Below, in pieces: positions 16,197 to 40,392 of a stretch of DNA of 64,000 bases. The stretch lies in NCBI RefSeq assembly GCF_058153355.1, contig NZ_CM177019.1; one strand, 5' to 3'. The position numbers and the translations under genes are program-made. The notes beneath the pieces were generated by a model that worked only from the letters and a program-made list of their open reading frames with translations, searched no databases and was not told where the DNA came from. The stretch's first letter is position 1; each line of letters opens with the position of its first letter.

Positions 16197-16216
16197 AATT
16201 TGGCTCCTCTGACTGG
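16197..16216. repeat. island boundary direct repeat (duplicate of tRNA-Asn 3' end, AATTTGGCTCCTCTGACTGG)
   Basis: Identical 20-mer recurs at 33537-33556, overlapping the 3' end of the minus-strand tRNA-Asn. Confidence 0.75.
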
Positions 16217-16367
16217 GATCGCCGTAGCCATTAACTGGCTGATTGGTAAGCTAAACCTAAAAGTTGGGGTTGTCAAGACCACCAGAATGACCACCTCTTT
16301 ACTTTGAAACTAACGACATATTTTACGCTCATCCCTCAGTCAATCGTAAGCTAATAAACAACACCAA

Positions 16368-16748
16368 CTACGGTGCTGGTATTATAGTCTCTGCTCCAAA
16401 CCAATTTCCAAGTGTTGTCAGTGCCGCAGGTGACAAAGCTTGGGTGAAAAGGATCGCAAGGCGCTTTTGGGGTCTGGAACAAGCGACGTAAAACAAATTT
16501 CGGTTTCGTTCAAATGAGTCTTGCTTATCGACTGGAATCGTTTGGGCTCCAGCGAATTCCAACATTTCTCCGAAGTTATACTGGTTCCACCCACGCCCAA
16601 CAACAACCAGGACATTCTCAAATTCAGCACCTTTCACACCATGTTTAGTTTCGAATGGAGAATATCCATCAAGATAACGGCGAAGTGATCTGACCTCCGA
16701 ATAGGGAATATTTTTCAGCTTTTCAAGTTCTTTTAATCTTCGGGGCAT
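16368..16748 (-). CDS. UvrD/PcrA-like SF1 helicase, C-terminal segment
   Basis: Carries helicase motif V/VI-like sequences (KGAEFENVLVV, YVACSRPQKRL); same reading frame as 16794-18122, separated by a single TAA. Confidence 0.6.
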   Translation of the reverse strand: MPRRLKELEKLKNIPYSEVRSLRRYLDGYSPFETKHGVKGAEFENVLVVVGRGWNQYNFGEMLEFAGAQTIPVDKQDSFERNRNLFYVACSRPQKRLAILFTQALSPAALTTLGNWFGAETIIPAP

Positions 16749-16793
16749 TTCAACATCAGCCGTTCTGTCAAAATGGAGTAACTCCTGCTCAAA

Positions 16794-20166: not shown

Positions 20167-20303
20167 ATGTCCCTCATGATCTATTTATAGTCTATCGATA
20201 AATCTGATGTTATTGCTCTACCTGTAATTTTCATTCTTACGATTGTTTTGCAATGCAAAATATACCTCAGGCCATATTTATTCCTGAGGTATGTTTTGGT
20301 ATC

Positions 20304-21824: not shown

Positions 21825-22843
21825 CCAACCGGAAGAAGAATGCTGCCCGGCCTGTGGTGGCGGGCTCAGTCCTCTGGGATGTGATGTGTCAGAACAACTG
21901 GAGCTTATCAGCAGCGCCTTTAAGGTTATCGAAACACAACGTCCGAAACTGGCCTGTTGCCGGTGCGACCATATCGTGCAGGCTCCGGTGCCTTCAAAAC
22001 CCATTGCACGCAGTTATGCCGGAGCGGGGCTTCTGGCCCATGTTGTCGCTGGAAAATATGCAGACCATCTGCCGTTATACCGCCAGTCAGAAATATACCG
22101 TCGTCAGGGCGTGGAGCTGAGCCGTGCCACACTGGGGCGCTGGACAGGTGCTGTTGCTGAACTGCTGGAACCGCTGTATGACATCCTGCGCCAGTATGTG
22201 CTGATGCCCGGTAAAGTCCATGCCGATGATATCCCCGTTCCGGTCCAGGAGCCGGGCAGCGGTAAAACAAGGACTGCCCGGCTGTGGGTCTACGTTCGTG
22301 ATGACCGTAACGCCGGTTCGGAAATGCCTCCGGCGGTCTGGTTCGCGTACAGCCCGGACCGGAAAGGTATCCATCCACAGAATCATCTGGCCGGTTACAG
22401 CGGAGTGCTTCAGGCCGATGCTTACGGTGGTTACCGGGCGTTGTACGAATCCGGCAGAATAACGGAAGCCGCATGTATGGCTCATGCCCGGAGAAAAATC
22501 CACGATGTGCATGCAAGAGTGCCCACCGACATCACCACGGAAGCCCTGCAGCGTATCGGTGAACTGTATGCCATCGAGGCAGAGGTCCGGGGCTGTTCAG
22601 CAGAACAGCGTCTGGCGGCAAGAAAAGCCAGAGCCGCGCCACTGATGCAGTCACTGTATGACTGGATACAGCAACAGATGAAAACACTGTCGCGTCACTC
22701 GGACACGGCAAAAGCGTTCGCATACCTGCTGAAACAGTGGGATGCACTGAACGTGTACTGCAGTAATGGCTGGGTGGAAATCGACAACAACATCGCAGAG
22801 AACGCCTTACGGGGAGTGGCCGTAGGCCGGAAAAACTGGCTCT

Positions 22844-24667
22844 GTGTGTCACGAAGGAGTACTTATGGCAACAATGTGAAAATTGCAGCATAAGTTATCC
22901 ATGCTCTGAGGTGGGTGGAGGTGGGCCCTCCGGTCAGGGTTTACAGGAGCACTGACCAAACGACCCGGTGCTGCTTCATTCTAAGGAATGAGGTGGTGAG
23001 CGACTCGGGAAAAGGCAGAGATCTACTGTCACGTGGGGTTCGGGAAGCTGAACGAAAGTAAACTGTCCGATGAAGCATCGAAATCTTAGATGATGTCAAA
23101 ATGGGGCCGTACAGCCGTCCCCTGATAAGCGCAGAAGACACCTGCTTACTGACTGCGCGGCATCCGGTGTGAAGGCAGCAGGATCCCGGGCCAGACCATC
23201 TCAGGGAACGTGAGAACCTGTTTCCGGCACGTATCGGGAAACAGGGGCGGACCCATTCGTAGTAGTGATGAAAGATCTGTAATGGGTCTGGAGCGAAGGG
23301 ATGGGGATCACATTCATTGCAGAAGACACAACCCAAAAGGGGATGACGTAACTGATGCAACGAAAATCATTTGAAATACCAAAAGCACTGGTCTGGGCAT
23401 CATATCTGGATGTGCGTCGCAACAAGGGAGCCCCCGGATGCGACGGGCAGACTTTGAAAATGTTCGACCAGCAACGTGATGGCAATCTATACAAGATCTG
23501 GAACCGGCTATGTTCGGGAACATGGTTTCCGCCACCAGTGCTGGAAAAACGGATCCCGAAGTCGAATGGCAAGGAACGCATTCTGGGGATCCCAACAGTA
23601 TCCGATCGAATTGCTCAGGGAGCGATAAAACTTTTCATGGAAGAAAAGCTTGACCCGATTTTCCATGCTGATTCATATGGTTACCGACCAGGCAAATCAG
23701 CTCATGACGCTCTGAAACAATGTGCCATCCGGTGCTGGCGTTATAGCTGGATACTGGAAGTGGACATCAGTGCGTTTTTCGACCATGTGAGACATGATCT
23801 GGTGCTCAAAGCTCTGGAACACCACGGGATGCCTAAATGGGTCATCCTGTACTGTCGACGCTGGATGGAAGCGCCAATGCAGAGTTGTGAAAATGGAGAA
23901 TTAATAACCCGAACACGAGGCACTCCGCAGGGCGGGGTCATTAGTCCACTACTTGCTAACTTGTTCCTTCACTATGCATTTGATTTGTGGATGGAAAGAG
24001 AATATCGGGGGGTACCGTTTGAGAGGTACGCTGACGATATTGTAGTACATTGTTCACGAATGAGTGATGCAACAAGGCTGAAGAACAGGTTATCGGAGCG
24101 CTTCTCGGAAGTCGGGCTGGTCCTGAATGCAGGGAAAACGAATATCGCCTACATTGACACGTTTAAAAGGAGAAACGTCGCAACGAGTTTCACCTTTCTC
24201 GGATATGACTTCAAAGTGCGTACGCTGAAGAATTTCAAAGGCGAACTGTACCGAAAATGCATGCCGGGTGCGTCAAATGCAGCAATGCGCAAAATAACAG
24301 AAACAATCAAGAAGTGGCGTATACATCGCTCAACAGCTGAGAGTTTGCTGGATTTTGCGAGGCGCTACAATGCGATAGTGAGAGGCTGGATCGAGTACTA
24401 CGGAAAGTTCTGGTCCAGAAATTTCAACTATCGACTGTGGAGTGCAATGCAGTCACGTCTGCTCAAGTGGATGCAGTCTAAATACAGACTTTCGAACCGG
24501 AAGGCTCAGCGAAAGCTGACGCTGGTAAGGAAGGAGTATCCGAAGCTATTTGTTCACTGGTATTTACTACGTGCATCAAATGAGTGATCAAGAGCCGTAT
24601 GACGCGAGAGTGTCACGTACGGTTCCGTGAGCAGCCGGGGAGTGAAATTCTCTCCGGCTGACTCGAC
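22844..24667 (+). mobile_element. group II intron (~1.8 kb) with intron-encoded reverse transcriptase
   Basis: 5' GTGTG start; domain V-like GAGCCGTATGACGCGAGAGTGTCACGTACGGTTC near 3' end; joining the flanks restores the TnpC frame (KNWL-FAGSDSGG). Confidence 0.7.
23355..24587 (+). CDS. group II intron reverse transcriptase/maturase
   Basis: 410 aa with RT motifs including YADD and a C-terminal maturase-like region. Confidence 0.8.
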   Translation: MQRKSFEIPKALVWASYLDVRRNKGAPGCDGQTLKMFDQQRDGNLYKIWNRLCSGTWFPPPVLEKRIPKSNGKERILGIPTVSDRIAQGAIKLFMEEKLDPIFHADSYGYRPGKSAHDALKQCAIRCWRYSWILEVDISAFFDHVRHDLVLKALEHHGMPKWVILYCRRWMEAPMQSCENGELITRTRGTPQGGVISPLLANLFLHYAFDLWMEREYRGVPFERYADDIVVHCSRMSDATRLKNRLSERFSEVGLVLNAGKTNIAYIDTFKRRNVATSFTFLGYDFKVRTLKNFKGELYRKCMPGASNAAMRKITETIKKWRIHRSTAESLLDFARRYNAIVRGWIEYYGKFWSRNFNYRLWSAMQSRLLKWMQSKYRLSNRKAQRKLTLVRKEYPKLFVHWYLLRASNE

Positions 24668-24852
24668 TCGCAGGTTCCGACAGCGGTGGCGAACATGCGG
24701 CGGTGTTGTACTCGCTGATCGGCACATGCCGTCTGAACAATGTGGGGCCAGAAAAATGGCTGCGTTACGTCATTGAGCATATCCAGGACTGGCCGGCAAA
24801 CCGGGTACGCGATCTGTTGCCCTGGAAAGTTGATCTGAGCTCTCAGTAAATA

Positions 24853-26796
24853 TCAATACGGTTCTGGCGAGCCGCTTACGTTTAATCGGGAAATCTCATA
24901 TTTTCGGTTCATCATTAATGGCAGAAGGAAGCGTTGATGCTGTTGACGAGAAATTTCACCAGCACGGAGCAGTTTTTCTAGGTTGCGTAACTGGAAACCC
25001 GCATGCGCCATATCATCATTGTTCTCTGTATTGGCCTGAAAAGCGGAAAAGTAATAATGCCGTGATTCCAGCAAATATAAACAGGTCAGATCCATATTTT
25101 TGCCAGATTCAGGCAGGCTGAAATCCAGATTCACACCATTCGTCGCAGAGGCGGTCTGAGTCAGCACAATGACAATACGCCGGGAGGCAAATGCGGCCTG
25201 ATAAGCATCACTAAAGCCCTTTTTCTTCTGACATTCTGCGGTTAACAGACAAATCAGCGCAGGCTCATTATGTATGCTCACTGGGATAAACACATCAGCA
25301 AAATTTTTTAGTAGAGGATCATCAGATAAAGGTTGTTCCATTTTTAACCATGCGAGGTATTCTCTACTTTGTGTTGCTATTGTAGTGGTAAGCCATTTTC
25401 TTAAATAGGCTATGGAATTCACGAAAGCAAGATGCCCCCGGTGTTGAGGTCTTTTTCCCGCAAGATCCAATACATTAAGCAATTTTAGCAGTATATTTTT
25501 TCGATATTCTGATTCGAAATCTGATGAGGGGTCATCGCCATTCTGGAAAAAATCGGGGGCTAGCGAAGCGAGCAGATCAACACAATGCGGGTTATTCTTT
25601 ATGCTATTGAAATCTTGAATCTCAGCATTCAGTTGTGTGTTTCTGATATTTTCTTTGCTGTTATTGATCTCTTCAATAGCTAAATACTGCAACTGGAAAT
25701 CATCAGCCGTCTGGACATAAGGTATCGGTTCTTTAAACCACTCGACAGGTCGTTTTTCAAAAGTTGTTCCCAGAAAACTTTGTGTAACAGCAGGGTTGCG
25801 TGCTTCTGCAATATAACGAAGAGCTGAATTAATCCACCGGACATCGAAGTGATTACAGGCTCTTTCAATATATGACGTAGCCGACAGTGCAAAGACAAGA
25901 TTACGACTGGCGAGAGAAAGCAGCAGACCTTCTGCCGTCGTGGGCAGAAAGGCACGTTTGATCTGTATCCGTAACGGATCGATATCCGTATCTGAGACAT
26001 TCTGTTTCAGCAACCAATTGGTCAAGCCAAAAATACTGGCATGAGTATTTGGCAAAATATTACTTTTCCTTAATTCCCGTAGTTCCGGCAGGTCAGTACG
26101 CGGTAACAAAAATCGGGACATATTGGGCAGGGTTGAGCCGTAGTATGAAGGCCTGTAATCATTAACGGGGTCGAACAGAAGTCGGGTTAACTTTTTAATG
26201 TATTCATACGCTTCATCTTCACTTGCAGTCAGGTCGGTCAACATTAGGCTAAACTGTCGAATGAATTTTTCCATCAAGCGTAAAAAATCACTGATGTCGA
26301 TAGTCTGATCGCTATCCTGAAGCGGAGAGTCTGGCCTGATAATTTCGTATCCATGTTCCGCTTTCCGCATAATAAGCCGTTCACTGGTCACCAGTTGATC
26401 GGAACGGAATAAATAATGCTCACCAAAGGGTTTATTATCCAGATATTGCTGAAGAGGAATAACCAGCGATCTGGCATGTGTTAAATCAGCATGTTTTTCT
26501 GTTAATGCACTATCCAGATCATTAATAAATTTTTCTAGACGTTCACGGATCATAGGTGCAGGTTCCATTTCAACATACTGCATACGTTGTAGTAATCTGC
26601 GTCCCCCGTCGAGCAACTGACCCAGACACTCAGGTGGTTCCTGAACCCATTGCGCCTGTGCCAGATACTCTTGTAATACCTCAGACTGGTAATCAAATTC
26701 ATCGATGAAAATGATGTAATTACGCAGCTCTTTGCTGGACATTTTTACTTTGCGACGCCCATCGTAAAACGATGAAACCATCTTTTGAGTCGTCAT
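24853..26796 (-). CDS. hypothetical large protein, downstream part of a split P-loop NTPase; Walker-B-like IIFIDEFD near N-terminus
   Basis: 647-aa ORF; stop codon lies inside the IS66 terminal repeat; starts 2 nt after the stop of 26799-27572 in another frame. Confidence 0.45.
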   Translation of the reverse strand: MTTQKMVSSFYDGRRKVKMSSKELRNYIIFIDEFDYQSEVLQEYLAQAQWVQEPPECLGQLLDGGRRLLQRMQYVEMEPAPMIRERLEKFINDLDSALTEKHADLTHARSLVIPLQQYLDNKPFGEHYLFRSDQLVTSERLIMRKAEHGYEIIRPDSPLQDSDQTIDISDFLRLMEKFIRQFSLMLTDLTASEDEAYEYIKKLTRLLFDPVNDYRPSYYGSTLPNMSRFLLPRTDLPELRELRKSNILPNTHASIFGLTNWLLKQNVSDTDIDPLRIQIKRAFLPTTAEGLLLSLASRNLVFALSATSYIERACNHFDVRWINSALRYIAEARNPAVTQSFLGTTFEKRPVEWFKEPIPYVQTADDFQLQYLAIEEINNSKENIRNTQLNAEIQDFNSIKNNPHCVDLLASLAPDFFQNGDDPSSDFESEYRKNILLKLLNVLDLAGKRPQHRGHLAFVNSIAYLRKWLTTTIATQSREYLAWLKMEQPLSDDPLLKNFADVFIPVSIHNEPALICLLTAECQKKKGFSDAYQAAFASRRIVIVLTQTASATNGVNLDFSLPESGKNMDLTCLYLLESRHYYFSAFQANTENNDDMAHAGFQLRNLEKLLRAGEISRQQHQRFLLPLMMNRKYEISRLNVSGSPEPY

Positions 26797-26798
26797 GA

Positions 26799-27572
26799 TC
26801 AGCAGGTGTTGCTTTTCGTCACGCCAGGCAATGGCGGGCAGAATGCGCCTGACCCAGACGTGGCGACGGAAATCTGCAACTCGTTGCCTGGCTTGGCTGC
26901 CTGCGTGAGTTCATGTTCTTCGCCATATTTTTCTTTTTGTTTCTTGGCTTCTTTTTCCAGCAATTTGATATTCTGAATCAGAGTTATCTCCACCGCTGCG
27001 CATGATTTGATTAATGACTCTTTCTCACTGGCGATGGCCGTCTGAAAACGCGTCGGATATCCTTTCAGCGATTTGTTAATATGCAGTATGTTTTTGCAAT
27101 TTCTACGCAATTTGTCGGCGATATCCTGAATGGCAAACAAATTTCTGTCTTCCAGGATATTGATGGAGTCAAATGGATCGGGAAGTGAGTCTGCGGAAAT
27201 ATTATTCTCATGAGGCAAGGGGGTGGCCTCGATGGCAGAAACGATCTGTTCATCTTGTGCATAGAGCACGCTGACGGTGAATGGTTCCCCGTTACTGTCT
27301 TTATGCGCTGCCGTTTTCTCATAAATGTCGTGCAAAATATTCCAGCGATGGGTAACCAGAATGGCTTGAGAGCCTGATTTTTTTATCGTCTCCAGCGCCG
27401 GGAGAGCGTTATCGGCATAGCCAGAGCGGTAGAGTGAGCTGGTTTTTCCGCTACCCGTAGGCCCCTGAAGCTGACAAAATCCTGCGATACGACGGGATGT
27501 TTTGGATTTTTTTGCCTGAGAAAGGGTGTATTCAATAACGGCATTGTAGGAACGTATTAAAGGGGCACTCAC
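26799..27572 (-). CDS. P-loop NTPase N-terminal segment (Walker A GPTGSGKTS)
   Basis: 257-aa ORF with Walker A near residue 40; low-complexity C-terminal tail suggests a frameshift into the next ORF. Confidence 0.45.
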   Translation of the reverse strand: MSAPLIRSYNAVIEYTLSQAKKSKTSRRIAGFCQLQGPTGSGKTSSLYRSGYADNALPALETIKKSGSQAILVTHRWNILHDIYEKTAAHKDSNGEPFTVSVLYAQDEQIVSAIEATPLPHENNISADSLPDPFDSINILEDRNLFAIQDIADKLRRNCKNILHINKSLKGYPTRFQTAIASEKESLIKSCAAVEITLIQNIKLLEKEAKKQKEKYGEEHELTQAAKPGNELQISVATSGSGAFCPPLPGVTKSNTC

Positions 27573-27885
27573 ATTTCACCTCATCCGTGTCAGGTTATCG
27601 AAGAGTAGAATTTCAGCAAATTCATGTTACACCGAACGGGTATCATTTCAATGTTTAATAATAATTTCCCCTTATAAAACAACGCTTATAATACATTCGC
27701 AGGTCAGATGATTTATCGGTGTGTTATTTGTTTGAATTTGGTGTTGTGGTTTTCTTTTTTTAACAATCTTCGATCTTCCTTCCACGACTTCCCCTTGCCG
27801 TTTTCAACCGAAAGCGGTATCTTTCACTTGCACCTGCAAAATCAGGTGCCGGGATTGGAACCCCGAAATGTAACCATACTGGCGA

Positions 27886-27910
27886 CACGTGACGCGTCTG
27901 CGTCTTTTTT
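27886..27910 (+). terminator. hairpin plus T-run (GACGCGTCTGCGTC-TTTTTTT)
   Basis: Short GC stem followed by seven T on the plus strand. Confidence 0.35.
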
Positions 27911-28075
27911 TATGTCGCGCGCTTAGCTACACCAAAATTATGGTGGGCTGGGCGGGGGCACCGTAAGGTGCGCCGGTTCCAGTATGGCCGGTAGTTCCAA
28001 CCTCGTTCAGTCCACCACCCATGAGATTGGAACCTCTGGTGGTGGTTTTCAAACCACATACTGGAGGCTGCCTTT

Positions 28076-28543
28076 ATGGCTACGATCCCCACTCAGACAC
28101 ACCCGTTACTTGCTGTTCCCTTCAATGCTGCCACAGATTTTACCGTACTGGCAGACCACTGTGAAAACTTCGCCGAAACCCTGATCGAAAGCGACGACCC
28201 GGTGCTGCGGCTGGCGCTTTGCGGGCGGCTTGCCGCCTGTCTGACTCTGCTGCAACCCACGCTGAACGAACCCATCCCGTCCCATCTGACTGACAGCCTG
28301 ACCGTTGATGCTCTACCTGCCGATATGCCCCGATTTGTCCCCGACGCTGAATTACTTTGTGACTACTCACTGACGCTGGCGCAACTTCTTATCGGGCAGG
28401 GGATGCTGCCAAAAATGGAGCAGACGATAACTGGCTTATTATGTGAACTGGTCTGGTATTTTGCCGCTGAAATGAAAGCCCCGCGTTGGCTGCGTACTGC
28501 CGGTGGCGTGAAGTTTATCGATGGTGTGGAGGCCAAAGCATGA
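28076..28543 (+). CDS. hypothetical protein (155 aa), translationally coupled to Ner-like gene
   Basis: ORF with no recognised motif; stop overlaps the next start. Confidence 0.4.
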   Translation: MATIPTQTHPLLAVPFNAATDFTVLADHCENFAETLIESDDPVLRLALCGRLAACLTLLQPTLNEPIPSHLTDSLTVDALPADMPRFVPDAELLCDYSLTLAQLLIGQGMLPKMEQTITGLLCELVWYFAAEMKAPRWLRTAGGVKFIDGVEAKA

Positions 28544-28746
28544 TGCAGTCTGACTGGCATCCTGCCGACATTATCGCCGGGCTGAAAAAACGTGGCACTT
28601 CGCTGTCAGCGCTTTCGCGTCAGGCTGGGCTGGCGTCCTCCACGCTGGCTAATGCGCTTACCCGCCGCTGGCCCAAAGGTGAAAGATTGATTGCCGAAGC
28701 GTTAGATGTTGCGCCTGAGAACATCTGGCCTTCGCGCTATCGCTGA
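28540..28746 (+). CDS. Ner/Nlp-family HTH DNA-binding protein
   Basis: MMQSDWHPADIIAGLKKRGTSLSALSRQAGLASSTLANAL...WPSRY resembles Nlp/Ner; start placed at internal Met of ORF 28486-28746. Confidence 0.6.
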   Translation: MMQSDWHPADIIAGLKKRGTSLSALSRQAGLASSTLANALTRRWPKGERLIAEALDVAPENIWPSRYR

Positions 28747-28892
28747 TGTCCTTCCGGCGCAGCCACGATACGGAAGCTGCGCCGCATTTCGTTTATCTGA
28801 TTTGTCATAATCCTTTGAACCGCAAAAACAGTTTTCTATTATCGGCCTTCTTACCACGAACTAAGCTCCCGCCTGTACAAAATGCTTCATGA

Positions 28893-28920
28893 CCTGAAAG
28901 AAGCGCCTGATGTATCAGGA
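28893..28920 (+). repeat. imperfect direct repeat copy 1 (CCTGAAAGAAGCGCCTG...TATCAGGA) upstream of pemI
   Basis: About 30 bp shared with a second copy at 29862-29889. Confidence 0.45.
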
Positions 28921-29093
28921 TGGTCGCCGTTTTACCGGCAATGCCGCCTTTGAAAACTGCCGGATCTGTCCTTCGATGGATTAAGGCTTTCTTCATACTT
29001 TATTACGCTAAGGAAATCACAATGAATCTGATGAATAATTGTGCATCGCCTGCCGTAGATGTTATATTAAAATATAATATTCGGAGGTGCTCT

Positions 29094-29351
29094 ATGTATA
29101 CAACTCGCCTGAAAAAGGTCGGCGGATCCATCATGCTGGCGGTTCCCCCCGCCGTGCTGAAAACGCTGGAGCTGTCGACGGACAGCGAAGTGGGTATGAC
29201 CATTGATAATGGCTGCCTGATTATTGAACCCCAGAAACGGCCCCGTTATTCGCTTGAGGAGCTGTTGGCGCAGTGCGATCCGCACGCAGAAATGAGCGAA
29301 GAGGATCGGGAATGGATTGATGCGCCTGCGGTGGGCAAGGAGATCCTGTAA
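29094..29351 (+). CDS. pemI: PemI/MazE-family antitoxin
   Basis: MYTTRLKKVGGSIMLAVPPAVLK...YSLEELLAQCDP closely resembles plasmid R100 PemI; start at internal Met of ORF 28920-29351. Confidence 0.8.
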   Translation: MYTTRLKKVGGSIMLAVPPAVLKTLELSTDSEVGMTIDNGCLIIEPQKRPRYSLEELLAQCDPHAEMSEEDREWIDAPAVGKEIL

Positions 29352-29684
29352 ATGGACAGAGGGGAAATCTGGCTGGTTTCACTGGATCCGATTGCAGGTC
29401 ACGAGCAAAGCGGAAAACGTCCGGTGCTTATCGTATCGAAGGCATCGTTTAACAAGCTGACCCGGCTACCCGTTGTTGTTCCCGTTACCAGCGGTGGAAA
29501 CTTCGCCCGTGCAGCCGGTTTTACCGTCTCACTGGACGGTGCGGGAACAAAAACAACGGGCGTTATTCGCTGCGACCAGCCCAGAACCATTGATATGGGA
29601 GCCCGGAGCGGAAAGCGACTGGAACGTATACCCGATGCTGTCGTGAATGAAGTGCTGGCCCGACTGGAGGCCATTCTGAGCTGA
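29352..29684 (+). CDS. pemK: PemK/MazF-family toxin
   Basis: MDRGEIWLVSLDPIAGHEQSGKRPVLIVS...LPVVVPVTSGGNFARAAGF closely resembles PemK. Confidence 0.85.
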   Translation: MDRGEIWLVSLDPIAGHEQSGKRPVLIVSKASFNKLTRLPVVVPVTSGGNFARAAGFTVSLDGAGTKTTGVIRCDQPRTIDMGARSGKRLERIPDAVVNEVLARLEAILS

Positions 29685-29861
29685 TGCTTTTTATGTAAAC
29701 TGAATGATGGCGCTGTCATATACAGCGCCATCATTTTTTATAACGACAAGTGATTAAAAAATCCTTTTGCAGGTAAAAACAGTTTTTCCTTTCTCCGCCA
29801 GCGGTACTGGCATAGTCTCCCCCTTGCCCTATGCTGTCGTTGACAGCGCCACGCTTCACAA

Positions 29862-29889
29862 CCTGAAAGAAGCGCCTGTTATCAGGAGG
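29862..29889 (+). repeat. imperfect direct repeat copy 2, downstream of pemK
   Basis: Matches 28893-28920 with a few mismatches; partial similarity extends ~40 bp further. Confidence 0.45.
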
Positions 29890-30119
29890 TTGAGCCCTTT
29901 ACCGGTGCAGACCTTTGCAAACACCGGGTCGCAGAACATCGCGACGGAGGCCAGAGTTTTAACACGATACGTCCTTTTACTGCGCCAGCCTGCTGGTCTG
30001 AATCTGCCCCGCGCCGGAATTTTCCCGGTCAGCTTATATTTGCTGACACCCTCAGCACCTTTTACCTCACGGGCTGCGGCATGCATTTGCCGCAAGGCAT
30101 TTGCTGACGCGTGCCCGTA

Positions 30120-30250
30120 AAACTGCACCAGACGGTAAATTTTCAGACGCTGCACCAGACCCGTGCGTCACTTTAACCGCGCAGAGCGGGAAAGTGACGC
30201 ACGCAATCCCTTTCGACCTGCACCAGAAAACTCAACTGCGCCAGCTCACG
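30120..30250 (-). repeat. array of CTGCACCAG/CTGCGCCAG motifs upstream of the recombinase gene
   Basis: At least four copies near 30123, 30149, 30220 and 30238, in opposite orientation to the array at 31618-31881. Confidence 0.45.
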
Positions 30251-30535
30251 GCTGGAGTCTGACACCGCCTTTTCAGGCCATTTACCTATAAGGAGAACAT
30301 GAATCGATACCGAGGCGGATCCGGACGATCCGGGGGATAACCCGCGCAAGCGGGCGGCTGCTCAGAGAGCACAACCGAAGCCCCACCACACCTCAACGGC
30401 TGCCGCCCCGGCGCTCAGGTATCGTTCGCAGCCCCGACAAAAAAACAGGGGCTATCGGCCTGTGCGCCGGGGAAAGCTGTATCAGTGTTGGTTTTTTGGG
30501 GGATGAGTTTGCGGCAATCATGAAAAGGGGAATGT

Positions 30536-31423
30536 ATGGGGATACTGGAGCAGGAAATGACGCGACTGGCGCAGCAGGCGGGTGGCAGCTACAAAACTGT
30601 GGATGACCGCATCAGGCTGGCGCAGCGGTTTTGTGAGCGTCTGGTTCTGGCGCAGAACGTACAAATCCGCCGGGTGGAGCAGCTTAAGGCGCGGCATATT
30701 GAAGGCTATGTTCGTGAACGGCTGGCGCAGGGCATCACAAAGCGTTCCCTGCAAAATGAGATGGCGGCGGTGCGCTGCATTCTGAAACAGGCCGGGCGTG
30801 ACAGGCTGGCGCAGAGTGAGCGGCTGAATAACCGCTCGCTGGGATTGTCCGGAGCATCCCGTAACGGGACGAAGCTGGCTATTACACTGGAGCACTATCG
30901 TGATGTGCTGGAGACCGCCCGCGTAAAAGATCCGGGGCTGGCGGCAGCGCTGGAGCTCTCAAGGTTGATGGGATTACGTTCGCAGGAGGCGGTGCAGAGT
31001 GTACAGTCGCTGAAAACGTGGATACAGGCGCTGGAGCGTGGTGAGTCCCGGTTAACCGTGGTGTTCGGCACCAAAGGCGGACGGCCCCGCGAGACGATTA
31101 TTCTTGATGCTGGCGTAGTTAAAAAAGCGCTGGATAATGCGCTGGTGGTGGCTGAGGATCGTCACGGCAGGCTGATAGATAAGCCCGATCTGAGAAGCGC
31201 GATGAAATACTGGCACAGCCAGGCGTCGGGTCTTGGTTTAACTGGCGCATATTCCCCGCACTCGTTGCGCTATGCCTGGGCGCAGGATGCTATTCGTCAT
31301 TATCTGGCGCAGGGATTTTGTGAGAAGGAAGCGCTGGCGATGACGGCGATGGATTTGGGTCACGGCGACGGGCGCGGGCGGTATGTGGCGCAGGTTTACG
31401 GGCGAAAGGGGGATGCTGATTGA
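30536..31423 (+). CDS. small tyrosine recombinase/integrase-family protein
   Basis: 295 aa; C-terminal HSLRYAWAQ box and candidate nucleophile in GRGRYVAQVYG; LAQ-rich N-terminal domain. Confidence 0.5.
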   Translation: MGILEQEMTRLAQQAGGSYKTVDDRIRLAQRFCERLVLAQNVQIRRVEQLKARHIEGYVRERLAQGITKRSLQNEMAAVRCILKQAGRDRLAQSERLNNRSLGLSGASRNGTKLAITLEHYRDVLETARVKDPGLAAALELSRLMGLRSQEAVQSVQSLKTWIQALERGESRLTVVFGTKGGRPRETIILDAGVVKKALDNALVVAEDRHGRLIDKPDLRSAMKYWHSQASGLGLTGAYSPHSLRYAWAQDAIRHYLAQGFCEKEALAMTAMDLGHGDGRGRYVAQVYGRKGDAD

Positions 31424-31446
31424 TAGCTTCAGACTTGCAATATGAT

Positions 31447-32005
31447 GTTATTCATCGTTTTCCGTACAAAATTATTTGCCTCAAATAATTTTGGGTGATT
31501 TCCTATTAATCCCGGGTTATTCATCGTTATTCACCGAAAAAATTTCTACGTAGAAATTTTTTGTTCGATTTCCTCTCAATAAAAATGCTTCTGAACGGTA
31601 TGGCCTATTAACAGGCCTCTGGTGCAGTATTACGGTATTTTACTGATGATTGCGCCAGCAAAAGGAAAAGGCCAAATAATGGTAAAGGGCGACTAAGGGT
31701 AACAGCGCCAGACCGGAAAGGGCCAAAAGGCTAAAAGGCCTTAACACTGGCGCAGTTTGATGTTTATCCAATAATATCTGGCGCAGTCCTGACATAGACA
31801 GGTGACAGCGGACTGGTGCAGTAAATGGTGACATTGAACTGGTGCGGATACGATGTATTGGGAAATCAGTTTCTGGTGCAGATTATCTGGCAGCTATCGT
31901 CTGGAGATTATTCACTGTGAATAATTTTCGTTATTTGCCTATTGATTCATAATATATTGATAGGTTTTCGTACAAAATTATTCTACGTCGAATAATTTTG
32001 TACGC
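31447..32005. promoter_or_regulatory. cluster of perfect palindromes (candidate operators or recombination sites)
   Basis: CAAAATTATTTG-CCT-CAAATAATTTTG (~31466-31492); 24-bp AAAAATTTCTACGTAGAAATTTTT (~31539-31565); ATTATTCAC-T-GTGAATAAT (~31907-31925); GTACAAAATTATTC...GAATAATTTTGTAC (~31969-32002). Confidence 0.5.
31618..31881 (+). repeat. array of CTGGYGCAG direct repeats at ~26-35 bp spacing
   Basis: Copies near 31618, 31747, 31778, 31813, 31839 and 31873. Confidence 0.5.
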
Positions 32006-32055
32006 TTTCCGATTAATAACCCAAAAGTTGAAGATAAATCCTTTCAATGTAAAAA

Positions 32056-32088
32056 GCAGATCCGGATTCAATCGGGATCTGCTTTTTC
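32056..32088. terminator. bidirectional hairpin terminator between recombinase region and integrase 3' end
   Basis: AAAAAGCAGATCCGGATTCAATCGGGATCTGCTTTTT: 10-bp stem flanked by A-run and T-run. Confidence 0.55.
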
Positions 32089-32116
32089 ATTCTTAACAAA
32101 TCATATTGCTACTGGC

Positions 32117-33379
32117 TCAGGCCGCCTTATGCCGTCGCGCATAAATATACGGCGCAACGTATCCCTCGCGGCTCACGTCCAGATAATCCGACCACCACTG
32201 CATCATGGCTGTACGGGCGTCAAGATGTTCAGCCCGGTGGATATACGCCGCCCGAACGCTGTTGCGCTCCTGATGACTTATCTGCCGCTCCACCGCATCC
32301 CGTGACCAGAGCTCAGATTCCACTAATGCGCTACAGGCCATTGCCCGGAAGCCATGCCCGCAAACGTCAGTTTTAGTATCGTAACCTATCAGACGCAGCG
32401 CCCGGTTGATGGTGTTTTCACTCATCGGTTTATACGGGTTATGGTCGCCGGGGAACACCAGTTCCAGATGGCCGGAAATTTCGTGTATCTGCTTCAGAAT
32501 GGCAATAGCCTGTCGGGAAAGTGGCACAATATGTGGGGTGCGCATTTTCGCGCCGCGACCAGAGAAACGGACTTTCTCAATCGCTTCCCTTGTGGCGGGG
32601 ATGATCCAGATTTTGTTTCTGAAATCTATCTCACCCCAGCGGGCAAAGCGCAGCTCGCTGGAACGGATAAACAGGTGGAGAGTCAACACCACCGCCAGCC
32701 TCGTAAGCTGTCGTCCCTGCCGATAGTCGCCAATGCGCTCAAACAATTCGGGCAACCGCTCCAGCGGCAGAGCGGGATAGTGATTCTTAACCGGCGGCGC
32801 GGTGACGCCTTCCAGATGCTGCGCCGGGTTGTTTTCGGTCAGTCCCTGCTGAACGGCGTAACGCATGATGTTGCAGAGTTGCTGCCGGGTACGGGACGCG
32901 ACTTCCAGAAAACCTTTATCCTCAATAACCCGCAGTAACGCAGTGAAATGCTGCGTTTTCAGCGTGGTAACGGGCAGATGGCCAATAGCCGGAAATATAT
33001 GGTTATTCATGCTGGCGAGAATGCGCTCTGCATAATCAGGCGACCACTTTTTGTTGGTTTTGTGCCATGCAAGCGCTACAGCTTTAAAACACTTTTCCGG
33101 TGAAGTGGCGGCTTTTTCATCCATGCGTTGTTGGGCGGGGTTGATATTCTGCGCCAGTAGCTTGCGGATAGCATCGCGCTGTTGCCGGGCTTCAGCGAGA
33201 GAAATCAGCGGATATGCGCCCAGACTGACGCGGGACTCTTTACCACCGAAGCGATACTTGAGATACCAGATACGTGAACCGCCGGGATTGACCAGCAAAT
33301 ACAGACCGTGTGAATCAGACAGTTTGACGGGTTTGGAAGAGGGTTTTAAGTTACGGATTTTTGAATCGTTTAAAGACAT
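32117..33379 (-). CDS. int: P4-type tyrosine integrase
   Basis: ORF 32117-33481; start placed at MSLNDSKIRNLKPSSKPVKLSDSHGLYLLVNPGGSRIWYLKY, a P4-integrase-like N-terminus; adjacent to tRNA-Asn. Confidence 0.8.
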   Translation of the reverse strand: MSLNDSKIRNLKPSSKPVKLSDSHGLYLLVNPGGSRIWYLKYRFGGKESRVSLGAYPLISLAEARQQRDAIRKLLAQNINPAQQRMDEKAATSPEKCFKAVALAWHKTNKKWSPDYAERILASMNNHIFPAIGHLPVTTLKTQHFTALLRVIEDKGFLEVASRTRQQLCNIMRYAVQQGLTENNPAQHLEGVTAPPVKNHYPALPLERLPELFERIGDYRQGRQLTRLAVVLTLHLFIRSSELRFARWGEIDFRNKIWIIPATREAIEKVRFSGRGAKMRTPHIVPLSRQAIAILKQIHEISGHLELVFPGDHNPYKPMSENTINRALRLIGYDTKTDVCGHGFRAMACSALVESELWSRDAVERQISHQERNSVRAAYIHRAEHLDARTAMMQWWSDYLDVSREGYVAPYIYARRHKAA

Positions 33380-33540
33380 TTGGGGGTCACTCCAGAATCG
33401 AACCAACCTGACCCCAAATCTGACCACCAAATTAACCGGATGCGGAGGGAAAACTGAATACGCATCTGGAAAGATTTTCACGCTAACTTATTGAATCAAT
33501 ATCAAATAAAGACTAATAAGGTAGCGTAAGAATCGAAATT

Positions 33541-33616
33541 TGGCTCCTCTGACTGGACTCGAACCAGTGACATACGGATTAACAGTCCGCCGTTCTACCG
33601 ACTGAACTACAGAGGA
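33541..33616 (-). tRNA. asnT: tRNA-Asn (GUU), island integration target
   Basis: Exact reverse complement of the 76-nt tRNA-Asn at 1688-1763; symbol by synteny with yeeJ and mtfA. Confidence 0.9.
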
Positions 33617-34607: not shown

Positions 34608-34697
34608 GGAGAGATGCCGGAGCGGCTGAACGGACCGGTCTCGAAAACCGGAGTGGGGGCAACTCCACCGGGGGTTCAAATCCCCCTCTCTCCGCCA
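34608..34697 (+). tRNA. serU: tRNA-Ser (CGA)
   Basis: 90-nt GGAGAGATGCCGGAGCGGCTGAACGGACCGGTCTCGAAAACCGG...TCTCCGCCA with long variable arm and CGA anticodon. Confidence 0.85.
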
Positions 34698-34749: not shown

Positions 34750-35775
34750 TTACTTGGAATATTTTCTTGGAATATTTTCAGGTAACGGGACATCAAGTGT
34801 CGGTGAAACTTTAACCTTCCTGTCATAGATTAGCACTTGCCCCTCGGTTTTGTGACCAGAGAAAAGTTGCTTATCCCGACTGCTTCCTTCATAGTCTGAA
34901 ATTCCTTTCGCCTTCAGATCATGAAAGGTGAAGTCGGTTAAAATACCTGAAATTTTGCCTGCGCGATTTCTTGCTTCTACCCACATTTCGTTAAAGCCTT
35001 TGTACATATATCGGTTGCCGTATTGATTGCTGATTACATAGGCGGATGTTGGTAACTGTTTTGCTTTTTCGATCGCCGCCTGTAATCGTGGACTCCATGC
35101 TTTTATCTGTTTTTTCCCTGTTTTCCCTTGCTGGATAAAGATCCCGTCGTTTCCAATCTGCTCCCATTTCAGCGATAACACATCGGAAACCCTCGCTGCA
35201 CACAGATAGGCAATTTCCATTGCGATAAAAACAGGAAGAGGTGCAACGCTTAATACTGCCTGGTATTCTTTGTCGGTTACATATCGTTCCCGGTTTTTGG
35301 CCTTGAATTTACTTACACCTGCACATGGGTTAGCCTTCACGTACCCTCGCTCATACCCCCAACTGTAAACGCGGGACATACTGCTTTTTTCATGGTTGGC
35401 TTGCGTTTTACTCTGTTCCCCTCTCTTGTCCATGTATCGACGGATGTGTTCTGGTTTTATGGAATCTGCCGGCACCTTACCGAATACGGCAAGCAACTTT
35501 TTTTGATGTTGCAGATAATCTTTTTGTGTTCTTGGACTGAGGTCACTGTAATAGGCGCTGGCGAGGAATTTTTCCCACAAGCGACCGAATGTCATTGCAC
35601 GATCGCGATTATTTACAGTTTCCTCATACTTTTTCCATAAAGCAGCTAAACCATCCTTGATGGCGGTTAGTGTTACAGATTCTCTGGATGTTGGTTTCCA
35701 TACATAACTATATTTATTTGGGTATACATTTGGAGGTAATTTTTCGTGTTCAGGATTTTTCCTTCGTCTTCCCAT
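34750..35775 (-). CDS. int: phage tyrosine integrase
   Basis: 341-aa ORF abutting the tRNA-Ser 3' end with an excisionase immediately upstream. Confidence 0.75.
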   Translation of the reverse strand: MGRRRKNPEHEKLPPNVYPNKYSYVWKPTSRESVTLTAIKDGLAALWKKYEETVNNRDRAMTFGRLWEKFLASAYYSDLSPRTQKDYLQHQKKLLAVFGKVPADSIKPEHIRRYMDKRGEQSKTQANHEKSSMSRVYSWGYERGYVKANPCAGVSKFKAKNRERYVTDKEYQAVLSVAPLPVFIAMEIAYLCAARVSDVLSLKWEQIGNDGIFIQQGKTGKKQIKAWSPRLQAAIEKAKQLPTSAYVISNQYGNRYMYKGFNEMWVEARNRAGKISGILTDFTFHDLKAKGISDYEGSSRDKQLFSGHKTEGQVLIYDRKVKVSPTLDVPLPENIPRKYSK

Positions 35776-39545: not shown

Positions 39546-40392
39546 GATGGCAGCCTCGATAGTCAGTTTAAATAACTCACCACCAGAGGTAGCAATCTCA
39601 TGGGTGGTGAGACGCACAGGGTTGCTACAACCGGTGACTACCGAAACCGGCCAGCCTTGCGGCTGCCCTGCACGCCCCACCATAATCTGAATGTGGCTGT
39701 GCTTGACGCATAAAAAAACCGCCTGAGCGCGGTTATGCGCAGTAGTCATCGTCGGGGTAGCAATCCCGGCACCCGTTTTATGAGGTGCAGGTGCACTATA
39801 ATTCCACCCGTTCTGGTTTTCAATAGCTACATTCAACATTTTCTCTTTCCTTTCATCACCGAAGTGAACTTTGTTGATGCGGTGCCTGGTGCCTCCAGGT
39901 GACGTTAACCAGTTAACAATTAACGCCGGAATAAGGGATTTTCCTTACTGTTTTAACTGTTCCGCGTGCGCTGAGCCGCATTCACCGCATCACAAAATTC
40001 ACTTTAAAAAGGGCGGACATCAGCCAGCAATTAAACCGATGCCGCCAAAGGTAATCAACATGGGTTGTTGCAGCGGGGTTGTCGCTCAGGCGTATGGTCA
40101 ACCTGACAACCCGGTGGACATTTGCGAGGAACGGAGAACCCCCGCCATACTTACCGCCGCGCCATTTCGCGGATTGCCACAACCGGAAGCGCACGGTCGA
40201 AGAAAATTTAACGACAGGCTATCTATGAACCAGCAACCTCGCCGTGCGCTTTCGCGTTATGCTCTGACTTTTCAGGGAAATATCCTTTCAGTAAACTGTC
40301 AGTGCCGGATACTCACCCGTGTCCGGCGCACCTACTCCACCTTACCCGTGGAGAACTCCTTAATTACCAACCTTAGCTTCGTTGGTTAGCTA

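What the first reader, a model, noticed from the sequence alone, without database searches (positions are those of the whole stretch)
30120..31890. Small tyrosine recombinase flanked by inverted arrays of a 9-bp CTGGYGCAG motif
Four or more copies of CTGCACCAG lie upstream and about six of CTGGYGCAG downstream at 26-35 bp spacing in opposite orientation. The same nonamer, read as Leu-Ala-Gln, recurs within the gene. This looks like iterated binding sites around a self-contained recombination module, unlike a simple att-site integrase.
Basis: seen in the sequence. Interest (0 to 1): 0.65.

Follow-up and report, generated by a model that had tools for sequence, protein, structure and literature searches.

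The report
Polar nonamer arrays around relaxase-like gene
The repeated 9-base motif is real and evolutionarily conserved, but the "small recombinase" it surrounds most likely belongs to the transfer-initiating (mobilisation) module of a 17-kb defence island, not to a DNA-flipping switch; what the motif arrays do has not been described.

Summary
CTGGYGCAG occurs 20 times in the window against 1.06 expected, and 16 copies lie in 29980-31881. Five are on the minus strand upstream of ORF 30536-31423, six on the plus strand inside it, and five on the plus strand downstream.

The same polarity holds across about 45 related loci: 108:12 upstream, 120:1 in the gene, 72:8 downstream. The in-gene copies are selected at the DNA level, because the Leu-Ala-Gln they encode is not a conserved protein feature.

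The 295-aa protein has a complete tyrosine-recombinase fold and active site. It belongs to Pfam Integrase_1, the family of SGI1 MpsA, and is 50% identical to a published seed of the MOB_M tyrosine-recombinase-like relaxases.

It sits in a 17.3-kb island at tRNA-Asn (16201-33556) that has its own P4-type integrase. Between the upstream array and the gene lie a deeply conserved, covarying hairpin (30162-30203) and an EFASI RNA (30299-30428). This matches the oriT–sRNA–mpsA layout of SGI1.

No inversion or excision polymorphism was seen.

Most likely this is a mobilisation module, and the nonamers are clade-specific accessory binding sites. Which protein binds them is inferred, not shown.

The parts
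29980..30244 (-). Upstream nonamer array: five exact CTGGYGCAG copies on the minus strand, at 29980, 30123, 30150, 30218 and 30236. Two lie on each side of the hairpin, and one lies about 140 bp further left.
   Evidence: The positions and the minus polarity are conserved in relatives.
30162..30203 (.). Conserved hairpin or inverted repeat CGTGCGTCACTTT-N16-AAAGTGACGCACG. It is the candidate oriT core, i.e. the relaxase recognition and nic region.
   Evidence: (I20) reports it as an inverted repeat. As ssDNA it folds at -21.2 kcal/mol, z = -8.3. The arms GCGTCACTT/AAGTGACGC occur at -320 to -390 in about 70 of 80 loci, as 44 distinct sequences with covarying inner stems. They also occur in Pantoea and Thiothrix plasmids.
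30299..30428 (+). EFASI RNA (Rfam RF02957), on the same strand as the gene, between the hairpin and the gene.
   Evidence: 119.2 bits against a gathering score of 51.2. It is present upstream of the homologous gene in all 49 loci tested.
30406..30472 (+). GC-rich inverted repeat (CCCCGGCGCTCAGG / CCTGTGCGCCGGGG) followed by a T-run. It may be a terminator or attenuator between EFASI and the gene.
   Evidence: (I22) and the sequence. Its function is inferred.
30536..31423 (+). Gene for a 295-aa tyrosine-recombinase-fold protein (Pfam Phage_int_SAM_2 + Integrase_1), a MOB_M/MpsA-type relaxase candidate. It carries six in-frame CTGGCGCAG copies, at 30566, 30617, 30647, 30722, 30806 and 31304.
31619..31881 (+). 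Downstream nonamer array: exact plus-strand copies at 31619, 31747, 31778, 31813 and 31873. One-mismatch copies lie at 31839 (+), 31650 (-) and 31703 (-).
   Evidence: The array is conserved in relatives that have int downstream.
31650..31755 (.). Conserved purine-rich core (AAAGGAAAAGGCC...TAAGGGTAACAGCGCCAGACCGGAAAGGGCC) bracketed by a divergent nonamer pair.
   Evidence: Alignment A2 shows long invariant runs across six loci, including the 181-bp minimal spacer of L008.
31449..32018 (.). Four AT-rich units of about 65 nt, each with a hairpin (31449-31510, 31518-31580, 31907-31946, 31955-32018). They bracket the downstream array. Their function is unknown.
   Evidence: D1, D3, I1, I15. ssDNA folds give z = -3.2 to -6.5.
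32117..33481 (-). P4-type (DUF4102-class) integrase of the island, convergent with the relaxase-like gene.
   Evidence: NCBIfam PRK09692, 4.5e-68. The synteny holds in L001 and L006-L009.
33541..33616 (-). tRNA-Asn. Its 3' 16 bases (33541-33556) are the right copy of the island's direct repeat.
16201..16216 (+). Left copy of the 16-bp direct repeat TGGCTCCTCTGACTGG. It marks the other end of the 17.3-kb island.

Best explanation
The region is the mobilisation module of a 17.3-kb integrative mobilisable island (16201-33556, tRNA-Asn, cargo Gabija).

**Shown**
- The 295-aa protein has a two-domain tyrosine-recombinase fold with an intact R-K-H-R-H-Y active site. It belongs to the Integrase_1 family, which contains the atypical relaxase MpsA of SGI1.
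- Upstream of it, in fixed order, lie a deeply conserved covarying hairpin and the EFASI RNA.
- CTGGYGCAG nonamers surround and invade the gene with mirrored polarity. They are conserved in the protein's own clade, independent of the neighbouring integrase, and maintained in the coding sequence at the expense of the amino-acid sequence.

**Inferred**
- After excision by the P4-type integrase, the protein acts as a MOB_M-type relaxase. It would recognise and nick at or near the hairpin (oriT), with EFASI playing the part that sgm-sRNA plays for MpsA.
- A helper conjugative element would supply the mating pore.
- The nonamers are accessory binding sites, most economically for the protein's own core-binding/catalytic clamp. 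Integron IntI and Tn4430 TnpI bind extra direct repeats of their sites in a comparable way.
- These sites would build an oriented higher-order complex around oriT and probably also autoregulate the gene.
For: **Family and fold**
- Pfam Integrase_1 3e-60 and Phage_int_SAM_2 8e-36.
- MpsA, recovered from an SGI1 fragment, has Integrase_1 as its best Pfam hit at 1e-10.
- A profile comparison with MpsA gives probability 98.2%, E 3e-14, over 238 columns.
- The protein is 49.8% identical to WP_033567157.1, a MOB_M seed.
- R148, K180, H242, R245, H276 and Y288 are invariant or nearly so in 47 diverse homologues.
- The AF2 model has pLDDT 95.8. It matches the core-binding plus catalytic domains of XerA, lambda Int, IntI, Tn1549 Int, XerH and Cre.

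**Layout**
- The order hairpin, EFASI, gene is found in 49 of 49 loci for EFASI and in about 70 of 80 loci for the hairpin.
- This parallels the oriT, sgm-sRNA, mpsA order of SGI1 (PMC9299015).

**Nonamers**
- Enrichment and polarity of 108:12, 120:1 and 72:8 over 80 loci.
- LAQ occurs 3.0 times per protein in the motif clade, against 0.17 in the sister clade and 0.25 expected from composition. 87 of 103 LAQ are encoded by the exact motif.
- In-gene copies occupy ten different alignment positions, one of them out of frame.
- The reverse orientation would encode an equally ordinary Leu-Arg-Gln, yet it occurs once against 120.
- The arrays occur next to integrases of 33-94% identity, or with no adjacent integrase.
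- They also occur with different upstream neighbours: PemIK, HigA, PTS genes or T6SS genes. The relaxase-like protein, the hairpin and EFASI are therefore the only constant partners.

**Context**
- Homologues are the only relaxase candidates on an MPF_G Pantoea plasmid and an 8-kb Caballeronia plasmid. MOB-suite types both as non-mobilizable.
Against: - No experiment exists on this clade. Relaxase activity rests on homology to MpsA, with 32% identity over 75 aa by BLASTP, and on a preprint's classification.
- The nonamer does not resemble the hairpin arms. If the protein recognises the hairpin, it would need a second specificity for the nonamers.
- Relatives of 55-64% identity have the hairpin and EFASI but no arrays, so the arrays are dispensable for the basic function.
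- EFASI is not detectably homologous to the sgm-sRNA region: no hit in SGI1 even at E ≤ 10.
- Many E. coli copies of the gene are frameshifted.
- The reason for the mirrored polarity is not explained by any tested model.
Confidence: 0.5

Rival explanations
1. The nonamers are binding sites for a factor not encoded in the module. This could be a regulator, relaxosome accessory protein or coupling-protein adaptor of the helper conjugative element, or a host protein. The island would use them to sense or hijack its helper.
For: - SGI1-type islands are known to carry helper-activator binding sites and to depend on helper functions (PMC6414798, PMC9299015).
- The nonamer is unlike the hairpin arms, which are the better candidate for the relaxase's own site.
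- The outer CTG...CAG is palindromic, as for dimeric regulators.
- The arrays are dispensable in the sister clade.
Against: - The arrays track the protein clade across many host genera, including Escherichia, Salmonella, Citrobacter, Klebsiella, Brenneria and Tatumella.
- In-gene copies and strict polarity are unusual for an activator site.
- No helper is identified.
Confidence: 0.15
2. This is a replicon-like control unit. The protein initiates replication of the excised island, and the flanking nonamers act as origin and copy-control iterons, as in P1 (incC-repA-incA) or F (the repE gene flanked by iterons).
For: - The gene is flanked by arrays of one motif.
- The downstream array sits in a 38% GC region with four AT-rich hairpin units and one consensus DnaA box at 31916-31924.
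- Relaxases and rolling-circle initiators are functionally related (general knowledge).
Against: - There is no Rep-family domain.
- DnaA boxes are not enriched: 5 in the window against 6.6 expected.
- The 9-bp units at irregular 18-68 bp spacing, and the copies inside the gene, are unlike 17-22 bp iterons.
- The downstream array is missing in several loci that keep the upstream and in-gene copies.
Confidence: 0.1
3. The motif acts in RNA. All copies would be in the sense orientation if transcription diverges from the 30245-30300 region, so CUGGYGCAG would mark the mob mRNA, its 3' UTR and a leftward transcript for an RNA-binding factor or for the EFASI pathway.
For: - The polarity switches once, near the EFASI 5' end.
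- In some relatives an exact copy lies at the 3' end of EFASI.
- SGI1 needs a locally encoded sRNA of unknown mechanism (PMC9299015).
Against: - No promoter-like site for a leftward transcript was found.
- EFASI holds no sequence complementary to the motif (sequence).
- In SGI1 the primary transcript runs through oriT towards mpsA. By analogy, the upstream copies here would be antisense.
Confidence: 0.07
4. One reading: an autonomous site-specific recombination module in which the protein inverts or excises the segment between the inverted arrays.
For: - The protein has a complete tyrosine-recombinase fold and active site.
- The arrays are in inverted orientation.
- TnpI and IntI use accessory repeats (general knowledge).
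Against: - No core site was found, i.e. inverted half-sites around a 6-8 bp spacer.
- Orientation relative to the flanks is constant in more than 45 motif-bearing loci and in the 36 collinear E. coli matches.
- Copies inside the gene would be cut by its own product.
- The only tested members of the wider group (MpsA, MobK, TcpM) are relaxases (PMC6414798, PMC8152469).
Confidence: 0.07
5. The nonamers are arm-type sites of the neighbouring P4-type integrase and belong to an extended attP.
For: - In the motif clade the integrase is usually adjacent.
- It has an arm-binding N-terminal domain, annotated as such in L006.
Against: - The arrays lie 1.66-3.5 kb from the core at 33541-33556, and none lies near either end of the island.
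- The same motif accompanies integrases of 33%, 57% and 88-94% identity, and also loci with no adjacent integrase.
Confidence: 0.03

Closest known systems
mobSGI1 module of Salmonella Genomic Island 1 (oriT - sgm-sRNA - mpsA - mpsB)
   Same: - The protein is in the same Pfam family as MpsA (PF12835).
- The order of parts is the same: a structured cis element with inverted repeats, then a small RNA on the gene's strand, then the gene (PMC6414798, PMC9299015).
- Both lie in an integrative mobilisable island that has a separate integrase.
   Different: - Here the core-binding domain is fused to the catalytic domain. MpsA needs a separate MpsB.
- EFASI is not detectable in SGI1, and the hairpin differs from oriT-SGI1.
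- SGI1 has no CTGNNNCAG nonamers around mpsA.
- Here the module abuts the integrase and the tRNA.
- Protein similarity is remote: 32% over 75 aa.
MOB_M relaxases as defined in bioRxiv 10.64898/2026.01.13.699239 (seeds include WP_033567157.1 of ICE SGI-4)
   Same: - The protein is 49.8% identical over 98% of its length to that seed.
- It is chromosomal, next to an integrase, in a small relaxase-only island ('iMOB'), as the preprint reports for this class.
- EFASI and STAXI also precede the SGI-4 gene.
   Different: - The preprint treats the upstream intergenic region as a candidate oriT. In its main text it does not mention hairpins, inverted repeats, direct repeats or iterons.
- SGI-4 has no nonamer arrays.
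- I could not run the preprint's profile.
Accessory direct repeats of tyrosine recombinases that lack an arm-binding domain (IntI1 at attI1 DR1/DR2; TnpI at the Tn4430 IRS DR1/DR2)
   Same: Extra copies of a short recombinase-binding motif flank the catalytic site and impose directionality. The enzyme has only core-binding and catalytic domains. This comparison rests on general knowledge and was not tested here.
   Different: - Those systems have 2 accessory copies within about 100 bp. Here there are 16 or more copies over 1.9 kb, including inside the gene.
- No core site built from the same motif is evident here.
EFASI and STAXI RNA motifs (Rfam RF02957, RF01728)
   Same: The EFASI match is full length and well above the gathering score. 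Rfam's own description says EFASI lies downstream of STAXI and upstream of 'integrase' genes, with unknown function (quoted in PMC12370729).
   Different: - The 'integrase' turns out to be the MpsA-family protein.
- In this window's clade STAXI is reduced to a sub-threshold remnant (25.5 bits), and the nonamer arrays occupy the flanks.
Initiator genes flanked by iterons (P1 incC-repA-incA, F repE)
   Same: A gene is bracketed by arrays of one short motif, which raises the possibility of handcuffing or autoregulation (general knowledge).
   Different: - There is no Rep domain.
- The units are 9 bp at irregular spacing, and copies lie inside the gene.
- DnaA boxes are not enriched.

Membership tests
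MOB_M / MpsA-type tyrosine-recombinase-like relaxases | Sequence homology to an experimentally characterised member (MpsA, MobK or TcpM) | tested here: met
   MpsA (L090:3230-4192) and the window protein share Pfam PF12835 as their best family. hhalign of family alignment A3 against MpsA gives probability 98.2%, E 3.3e-14, 238 columns. BLASTP gives E 1e-4.
MOB_M / MpsA-type tyrosine-recombinase-like relaxases | Catalytic tyrosine and the R-K-H-R-H residues of the DNA breaking-rejoining domain | tested here: met
   R148, K180, H242, R245, H276 and Y288 are invariant or at least 90% conserved in 47 homologues. The fold is confirmed.
MOB_M / MpsA-type tyrosine-recombinase-like relaxases | Score above the cut-off (84 bits) of the CONJscan MOB_M profile | not tested
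   The profile is not available here. Indirect support: 49.8% identity to seed WP_033567157.1.
MOB_M / MpsA-type tyrosine-recombinase-like relaxases | A cognate oriT next to the gene | tested here: inconclusive
   A conserved, covarying hairpin lies 330-370 bp upstream. This is the usual position, but no nic site or transfer assay exists.
MOB_M / MpsA-type tyrosine-recombinase-like relaxases | Site-specific nicking at oriT and a requirement for conjugative mobilisation | not testable with these tools
   This needs nicking and mating assays.
Classical site-specific tyrosine recombinase system (integrase, invertase or resolvase) | Two-domain recombinase with an intact active site | tested here: met
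Classical site-specific tyrosine recombinase system (integrase, invertase or resolvase) | A core site made of two inverted binding motifs around a 6-8 bp crossover spacer, in two copies | tested here: not met
   The nearest inverted nonamer pairs are 22 bp (31619/31650) and 35 bp (31703/31747) apart. The hairpin arms are 16 bp apart and occur once.
Classical site-specific tyrosine recombinase system (integrase, invertase or resolvase) | Rearrangement (inversion or deletion) between the sites, seen among genomes | tested here: not met
   The gene's orientation relative to C4/isrK, int and tRNA is constant in all motif-bearing loci. The 36 E. coli genomes with at least 80% coverage are collinear.
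Arm-type sites of a lambda/P4-type integrase | Sites lie within a few hundred bp of the att core and co-vary with the integrase | tested here: not met
   The arrays are 1.66-3.5 kb from the core, and none lies at the island ends. The same motif occurs with integrases of 33-94% identity or with none.
Iteron-regulated replicon | A Rep-family initiator, with 17-22 bp iterons adjoining DnaA boxes and an AT-rich region | tested here: not met
   There is no Rep domain. The units are 9 bp at irregular spacing. DnaA boxes are not enriched. An AT-rich region is present.
EFASI RNA (Rfam RF02957) | Covariance-model score above the gathering threshold | tested here: met
   119.2 bits against 51.2, full length, at 30299-30428 on the plus strand.

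The most novel reading that the evidence does not exclude
The nonamers are a polarity device for conjugative DNA processing. Oriented copies on both sides, including inside the relaxase gene, would direct head-to-tail assembly or tracking of the Xer-like relaxase towards the hairpin oriT, much as KOPS point FtsK to XerCD-dif or as accessory repeats orient TnpI. EFASI would be an RNA cofactor of the whole MpsA-family relaxase class, generalising the unexplained requirement of SGI1 for sgm-sRNA. The orphan EFASI and STAXI motifs would then be parts of oriT regions. A coding sequence would have been remodelled (Leu-Ala-Gln at up to six places) to carry binding sites for its own product.
Probability: 0.15. 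Interest if true: 0.8.

Novelty: new variant of a known kind. Interest (0 to 1): 0.58.

Why it matters
**How common the module is.** Relatives of this gene at about 70% DNA identity occur in 618 of 5,426 complete E. coli genomes. They occur across the Enterobacterales, at the integrase end of tRNA-linked islands carrying defence, T6SS and sugar-uptake genes. How such islands move is mostly unknown.

**What this analysis offers for testing.**
- A candidate cis-acting transfer site: the hairpin conserved from E. coli to a Thiothrix plasmid.
- A proposed function for the orphan EFASI RNA, as the positional counterpart of SGI1's essential sgm-sRNA.
- A clade-specific set of polar nonamers under DNA-level selection strong enough to rewrite the protein.

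**Consequences if confirmed.**
- It would extend the poorly understood tyrosine-recombinase-like relaxases beyond three studied cases.
- It would improve the typing of islands and plasmids now called 'non-mobilizable'.

Tried and rejected
- **Chance or codon usage.** Rejected by shuffles, by the LAQ statistics and sister-clade comparison, and by the 120:1 orientation bias, even though the reverse orientation (Leu-Arg-Gln) is equally codable.
- **Arm sites of the P4-type integrase.** Rejected on distance and lack of covariation.
- **SfsB/Ner-like regulator (28486-28746), the 155-aa ORF, or PemI as the binder.** These neighbours are absent from other array-bearing loci.
- **A different repeated 8-mer in the 55-64% clade.** None was found. 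The TTCGGGTG triplets there fall inside STAXI.
- **EFASI in SGI1.** None, even at E ≤ 10.
- **SGI1 in complete E. coli genomes, searched with a published primer.** No match. A fragment was found among records labelled as plasmids.
- **Solved structures by sequence.** No hit.
- **NCBIfam.** Only a weak XerC hit. **PADLOC:** none.
- **Promoter scan.** Nothing above the shuffle expectation.
- **DnaA boxes.** Not enriched.
- **The isolated downstream-core match in E. coli NMBU-W12E19.** It is an IS5-truncated remnant, not a relaxase-less island.
- **First search for related loci attempt with the 47-sequence alignment.** It failed for lack of a conserved stretch.
- **The SGI-4 oriT paper (DNA Research 2025).** Not held in the library.
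- **Mirror symmetry of the five upstream and first five in-gene copies about ~30410.** Seen in the window and its 90% relative, but not in more distant loci, so it is treated as unexplained and not as evidence.
Full report
**1. The observation**

An exact search for CTGGYGCAG finds 20 matches in the 64-kb window. Dinucleotide shuffles expect 1.06, and none of 100 shuffles reaches 20. Sixteen matches lie between 29980 and 31881:
- Five on the minus strand upstream of ORF 30536-31423: 29980, 30123, 30150, 30218, 30236.
- Six on the plus strand inside the ORF: 30566, 30617, 30647, 30722, 30806, 31304.
- Five on the plus strand downstream: 31619, 31747, 31778, 31813, 31873.

One-mismatch copies lie at 31839 (+), 31650 (-) and 31703 (-). 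The unit is a strict 9-mer without conserved flanks. Its outer CTG...CAG is palindromic, so orientation is carried only by the central GYG. All six Leu-Ala-Gln tripeptides of the protein are encoded by CTGGCGCAG. The polarity switches once, between 30244 and 30566.

**2. The protein**

The 295-aa product matches Pfam Phage_int_SAM_2 (residues 1-92, 8e-36) and Integrase_1 (PF12835, residues 103-251, 3e-60). NCBIfam gives only a faint XerC hit.

In 47 homologues of 32-52% identity, R148, K180, H242, R245, H276 and Y288 are invariant or nearly so. An AlphaFold model (pLDDT 95.8) aligns over both domains with XerA, lambda Int (core-binding plus catalytic), IntI, Tn1549 Int, XerH and Cre. It also aligns with the recombinase-like repressors YopR and MrpR. 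So this is a complete, probably active, tyrosine-recombinase-fold enzyme without an arm-binding domain.

PF12835 is the signature the Burrus laboratory uses for MpsA, the atypical relaxase of SGI1 (PMC10484663). I recovered an SGI1 fragment through a published primer. Three checks followed:
- MpsA's best Pfam family is Integrase_1, at 1e-10.
- The family profile aligns with MpsA at 98.2% probability, E 3e-14.
- Pairwise BLASTP is weak, at 1e-4.

The window protein is also 49.8% identical to WP_033567157.1 of ICE SGI-4. That protein is one of the seed 'MOB_M' relaxases of bioRxiv 10.64898/2026.01.13.699239. The preprint reports that such proteins are the commonest relaxase candidates in enterobacterial chromosomes and nearly always lie next to an integrase.

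**3. Context**

A 16-bp direct repeat (16201-16216 and 33541-33556, the 3' end of tRNA-Asn) delimits a 17.3-kb island. The island holds:
- a P4-type integrase at 32117-33481;
- Gabija, GajA and GajB;
- a group II intron;
- isrK and C4 RNAs;
- an SfsB-like regulator;
- PemIK.

E. coli LF82 has a 90% identical module at tRNA-Asn. Relatives at about 70% DNA identity occur in 618 of 5,426 complete E. coli genomes. They sit at tRNA-Asn, tRNA-Asp or tRNA-Phe and always have the order tRNA, int, non-coding DNA, this gene.

**4. Conserved cis elements besides the nonamers**

An alignment of upstream regions shows two elements.

The first is a hairpin at 30162-30203. Its arms GCGTCACTT/AAGTGACGC are found 320-390 bp upstream of the start codon in about 70 of 80 genome loci. 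There are 44 distinct sequences, and the inner stems differ but stay complementary. The arms also occur upstream of homologues on a Pantoea plasmid (47% identity) and a Thiothrix plasmid (36% identity). As ssDNA the hairpin folds at -21.2 kcal/mol, z = -8.3.

The second is an EFASI RNA at 30299-30428: 119 bits against a gathering score of 51. EFASI lies directly upstream, on the gene's strand, in all 49 loci tested, including SGI-4. Rfam describes EFASI as 'frequently around STAXI and integrases', with unknown function (PMC12370729).

In SGI1 an essential small RNA, sgm-sRNA, is encoded between oriT and mpsA on the same strand (PMC9299015). The layout here is the same. EFASI is nevertheless not detectable in SGI1, so this is a positional parallel and not a demonstrated homology. 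I found no paper that connects EFASI with these relaxases.

**5. Behaviour of the nonamers in evolution**

Eighty loci from species-representative genomes give these orientation counts:

| Position | Dominant strand | Other strand |
|---|---|---|
| Upstream | 108 minus | 12 plus |
| In gene | 120 plus | 1 minus |
| Downstream | 72 plus | 8 minus |

The motif occurs wherever the protein is at least ~65% identical to the window's, plus two outliers. It is absent from the 55-64% clade, which keeps the hairpin and EFASI and carries STAXI upstream.

The LAQ tripeptide shows the DNA-level selection:
- It occurs 3.0 times per protein in the motif clade.
- It occurs 0.17 times per protein in the sister clade, and 0.25 are expected from composition.
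- 87 of 103 LAQ are encoded by the exact nonamer.

In-gene copies occupy ten different alignment positions, one of them out of frame. This indicates repeated gain. The DNA motif therefore drives the amino-acid sequence, not the reverse.

The arrays accompany neighbouring integrases of 33-94% identity, or no adjacent integrase. They also occur with varied upstream neighbours. Their only constant partners are the protein, the hairpin and EFASI.

Downstream, a purine-rich core (31650-31755) bracketed by a divergent nonamer pair is nearly invariant, even in a locus with only 181 bp between the gene and int.

**6. Mechanism**

Best supported is a mobilisation module. The P4-type integrase excises the island. 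The MpsA-family protein processes the hairpin region as oriT, with EFASI as a locally encoded RNA factor. A helper element provides the pore. These steps are inferred from homology and layout.

The nonamers are most economically read as accessory sites for the module's only protein. They would organise an oriented complex and perhaps provide autoregulation. This is inference, and the mirrored polarity remains unexplained. A helper or host factor is the main alternative binder.

The other readings fared as follows:
- **Recombination switch:** disfavoured. No core site exists and no rearrangement is seen among genomes.
- **Integrase arm sites:** excluded by distance and lack of covariation.
- **Iteron replicon:** no Rep domain and no DnaA-box enrichment.
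- **RNA-level role:** would need an unseen leftward transcript.

**7. Novelty**

The protein family, the island type and EFASI are each known. Three things are not described in what I could search:
- the polar nonamer arrays, including their selection inside the gene;
- the family-wide hairpin;
- the EFASI/STAXI link to MpsA-type relaxases.

I rate this a new variant of a known kind, of moderate to good interest, with clear experiments available.

Noticed in passing
window 16794-20166: The island's cargo includes a Gabija defence system: GajB at 16794-18122 (-) and GajA at 18094-20166 (-). The PADLOC E-values are 3e-203 and 3e-289. The large ORFs at 20304-22004, 24853-26796 and 26799-27572 match no family.
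   Followed up: partly
window 22917-24667: A group II intron lies inside the island. Rfam finds D1-D4 at 22917-23033 and D5/D6 at 24590-24667, and a reverse transcriptase/maturase ORF lies at 23355-24587.
   Followed up: partly
window 27830-28022 and 39600-39788: Pairs of isrK and C4 antisense RNAs (P1/P4-type immunity RNAs) occur twice. One pair is in this island. The other is in the neighbouring element to the right of tRNA-Ser (34608-34697), which has its own integrase at 34750-35775.
   Followed up: no
window 31449-31580 and 31907-32018: Four AT-rich units of about 65 nt bracket the downstream nonamer array. Each has a hairpin with an 8-15 bp stem and shared flanks (TATTCATCGTT ... GATTTCC.ATTAAT). 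ssDNA folds give z = -3.2 to -6.5. One consensus DnaA box lies at 31916-31924. Their function is unknown.
   Followed up: partly
window 29832-29902: A sub-threshold STAXI match (25.5 bits; gathering score 40.5) lies left of the upstream array. In the sister clade that lacks nonamers, full STAXI copies lie 600-900 bp upstream of the gene. Two of those loci have a radC RNA motif instead.
   Followed up: partly
L095 (Thiothrix unzii plasmid pTunz2) 1341-2225 and about 470 bp upstream: A 36%-identical homologue in another order keeps the hairpin arms (GCGTCACTTG...CAAGTGACGC). It carries five copies of a different CTG-N3-CAG nonamer (CTGCAACAG) inside the gene, all in one orientation and in two reading frames. 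This may be an independent case of the same phenomenon.
   Followed up: partly
L094 (Pantoea agglomerans 78-kb plasmid) and L093 (Caballeronia 8-kb plasmid): MOB-suite types both plasmids as 'non-mobilizable', and the first has an MPF_G mating system. Both encode a homologue of this protein, which is probably a relaxase that current typing misses.
   Followed up: no
L092 (Salmonella Infantis pESI-like plasmid pN55391) 4023-5200: 148 Salmonella plasmid records, 131 of them typed conjugative and resembling the Salmonella Infantis pESI plasmid, carry PemIK followed by an 82%-identical copy of the upstream array and hairpin. No EFASI was detected there. It is apparently a truncated remnant of such an island.
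   Followed up: partly
window 29980-30810: In the window the centres of the five upstream nonamers and of the first five in-gene nonamers are roughly mirror-symmetric about ~30410. Pairwise sums of centres are 60794-60853. LF82, with its near-identical layout, would share this, but more distant relatives do not. It is unexplained and possibly coincidental.
   Followed up: partly
L006, L007, L009 (E. coli RM9387, 22AR0322, O145:H28 RM13516): In many E. coli genomes the relaxase-like gene, and often the adjacent integrase, are annotated as frameshifted pseudogenes while the nonamer arrays persist. These islands appear to be decaying in place.
   Followed up: no
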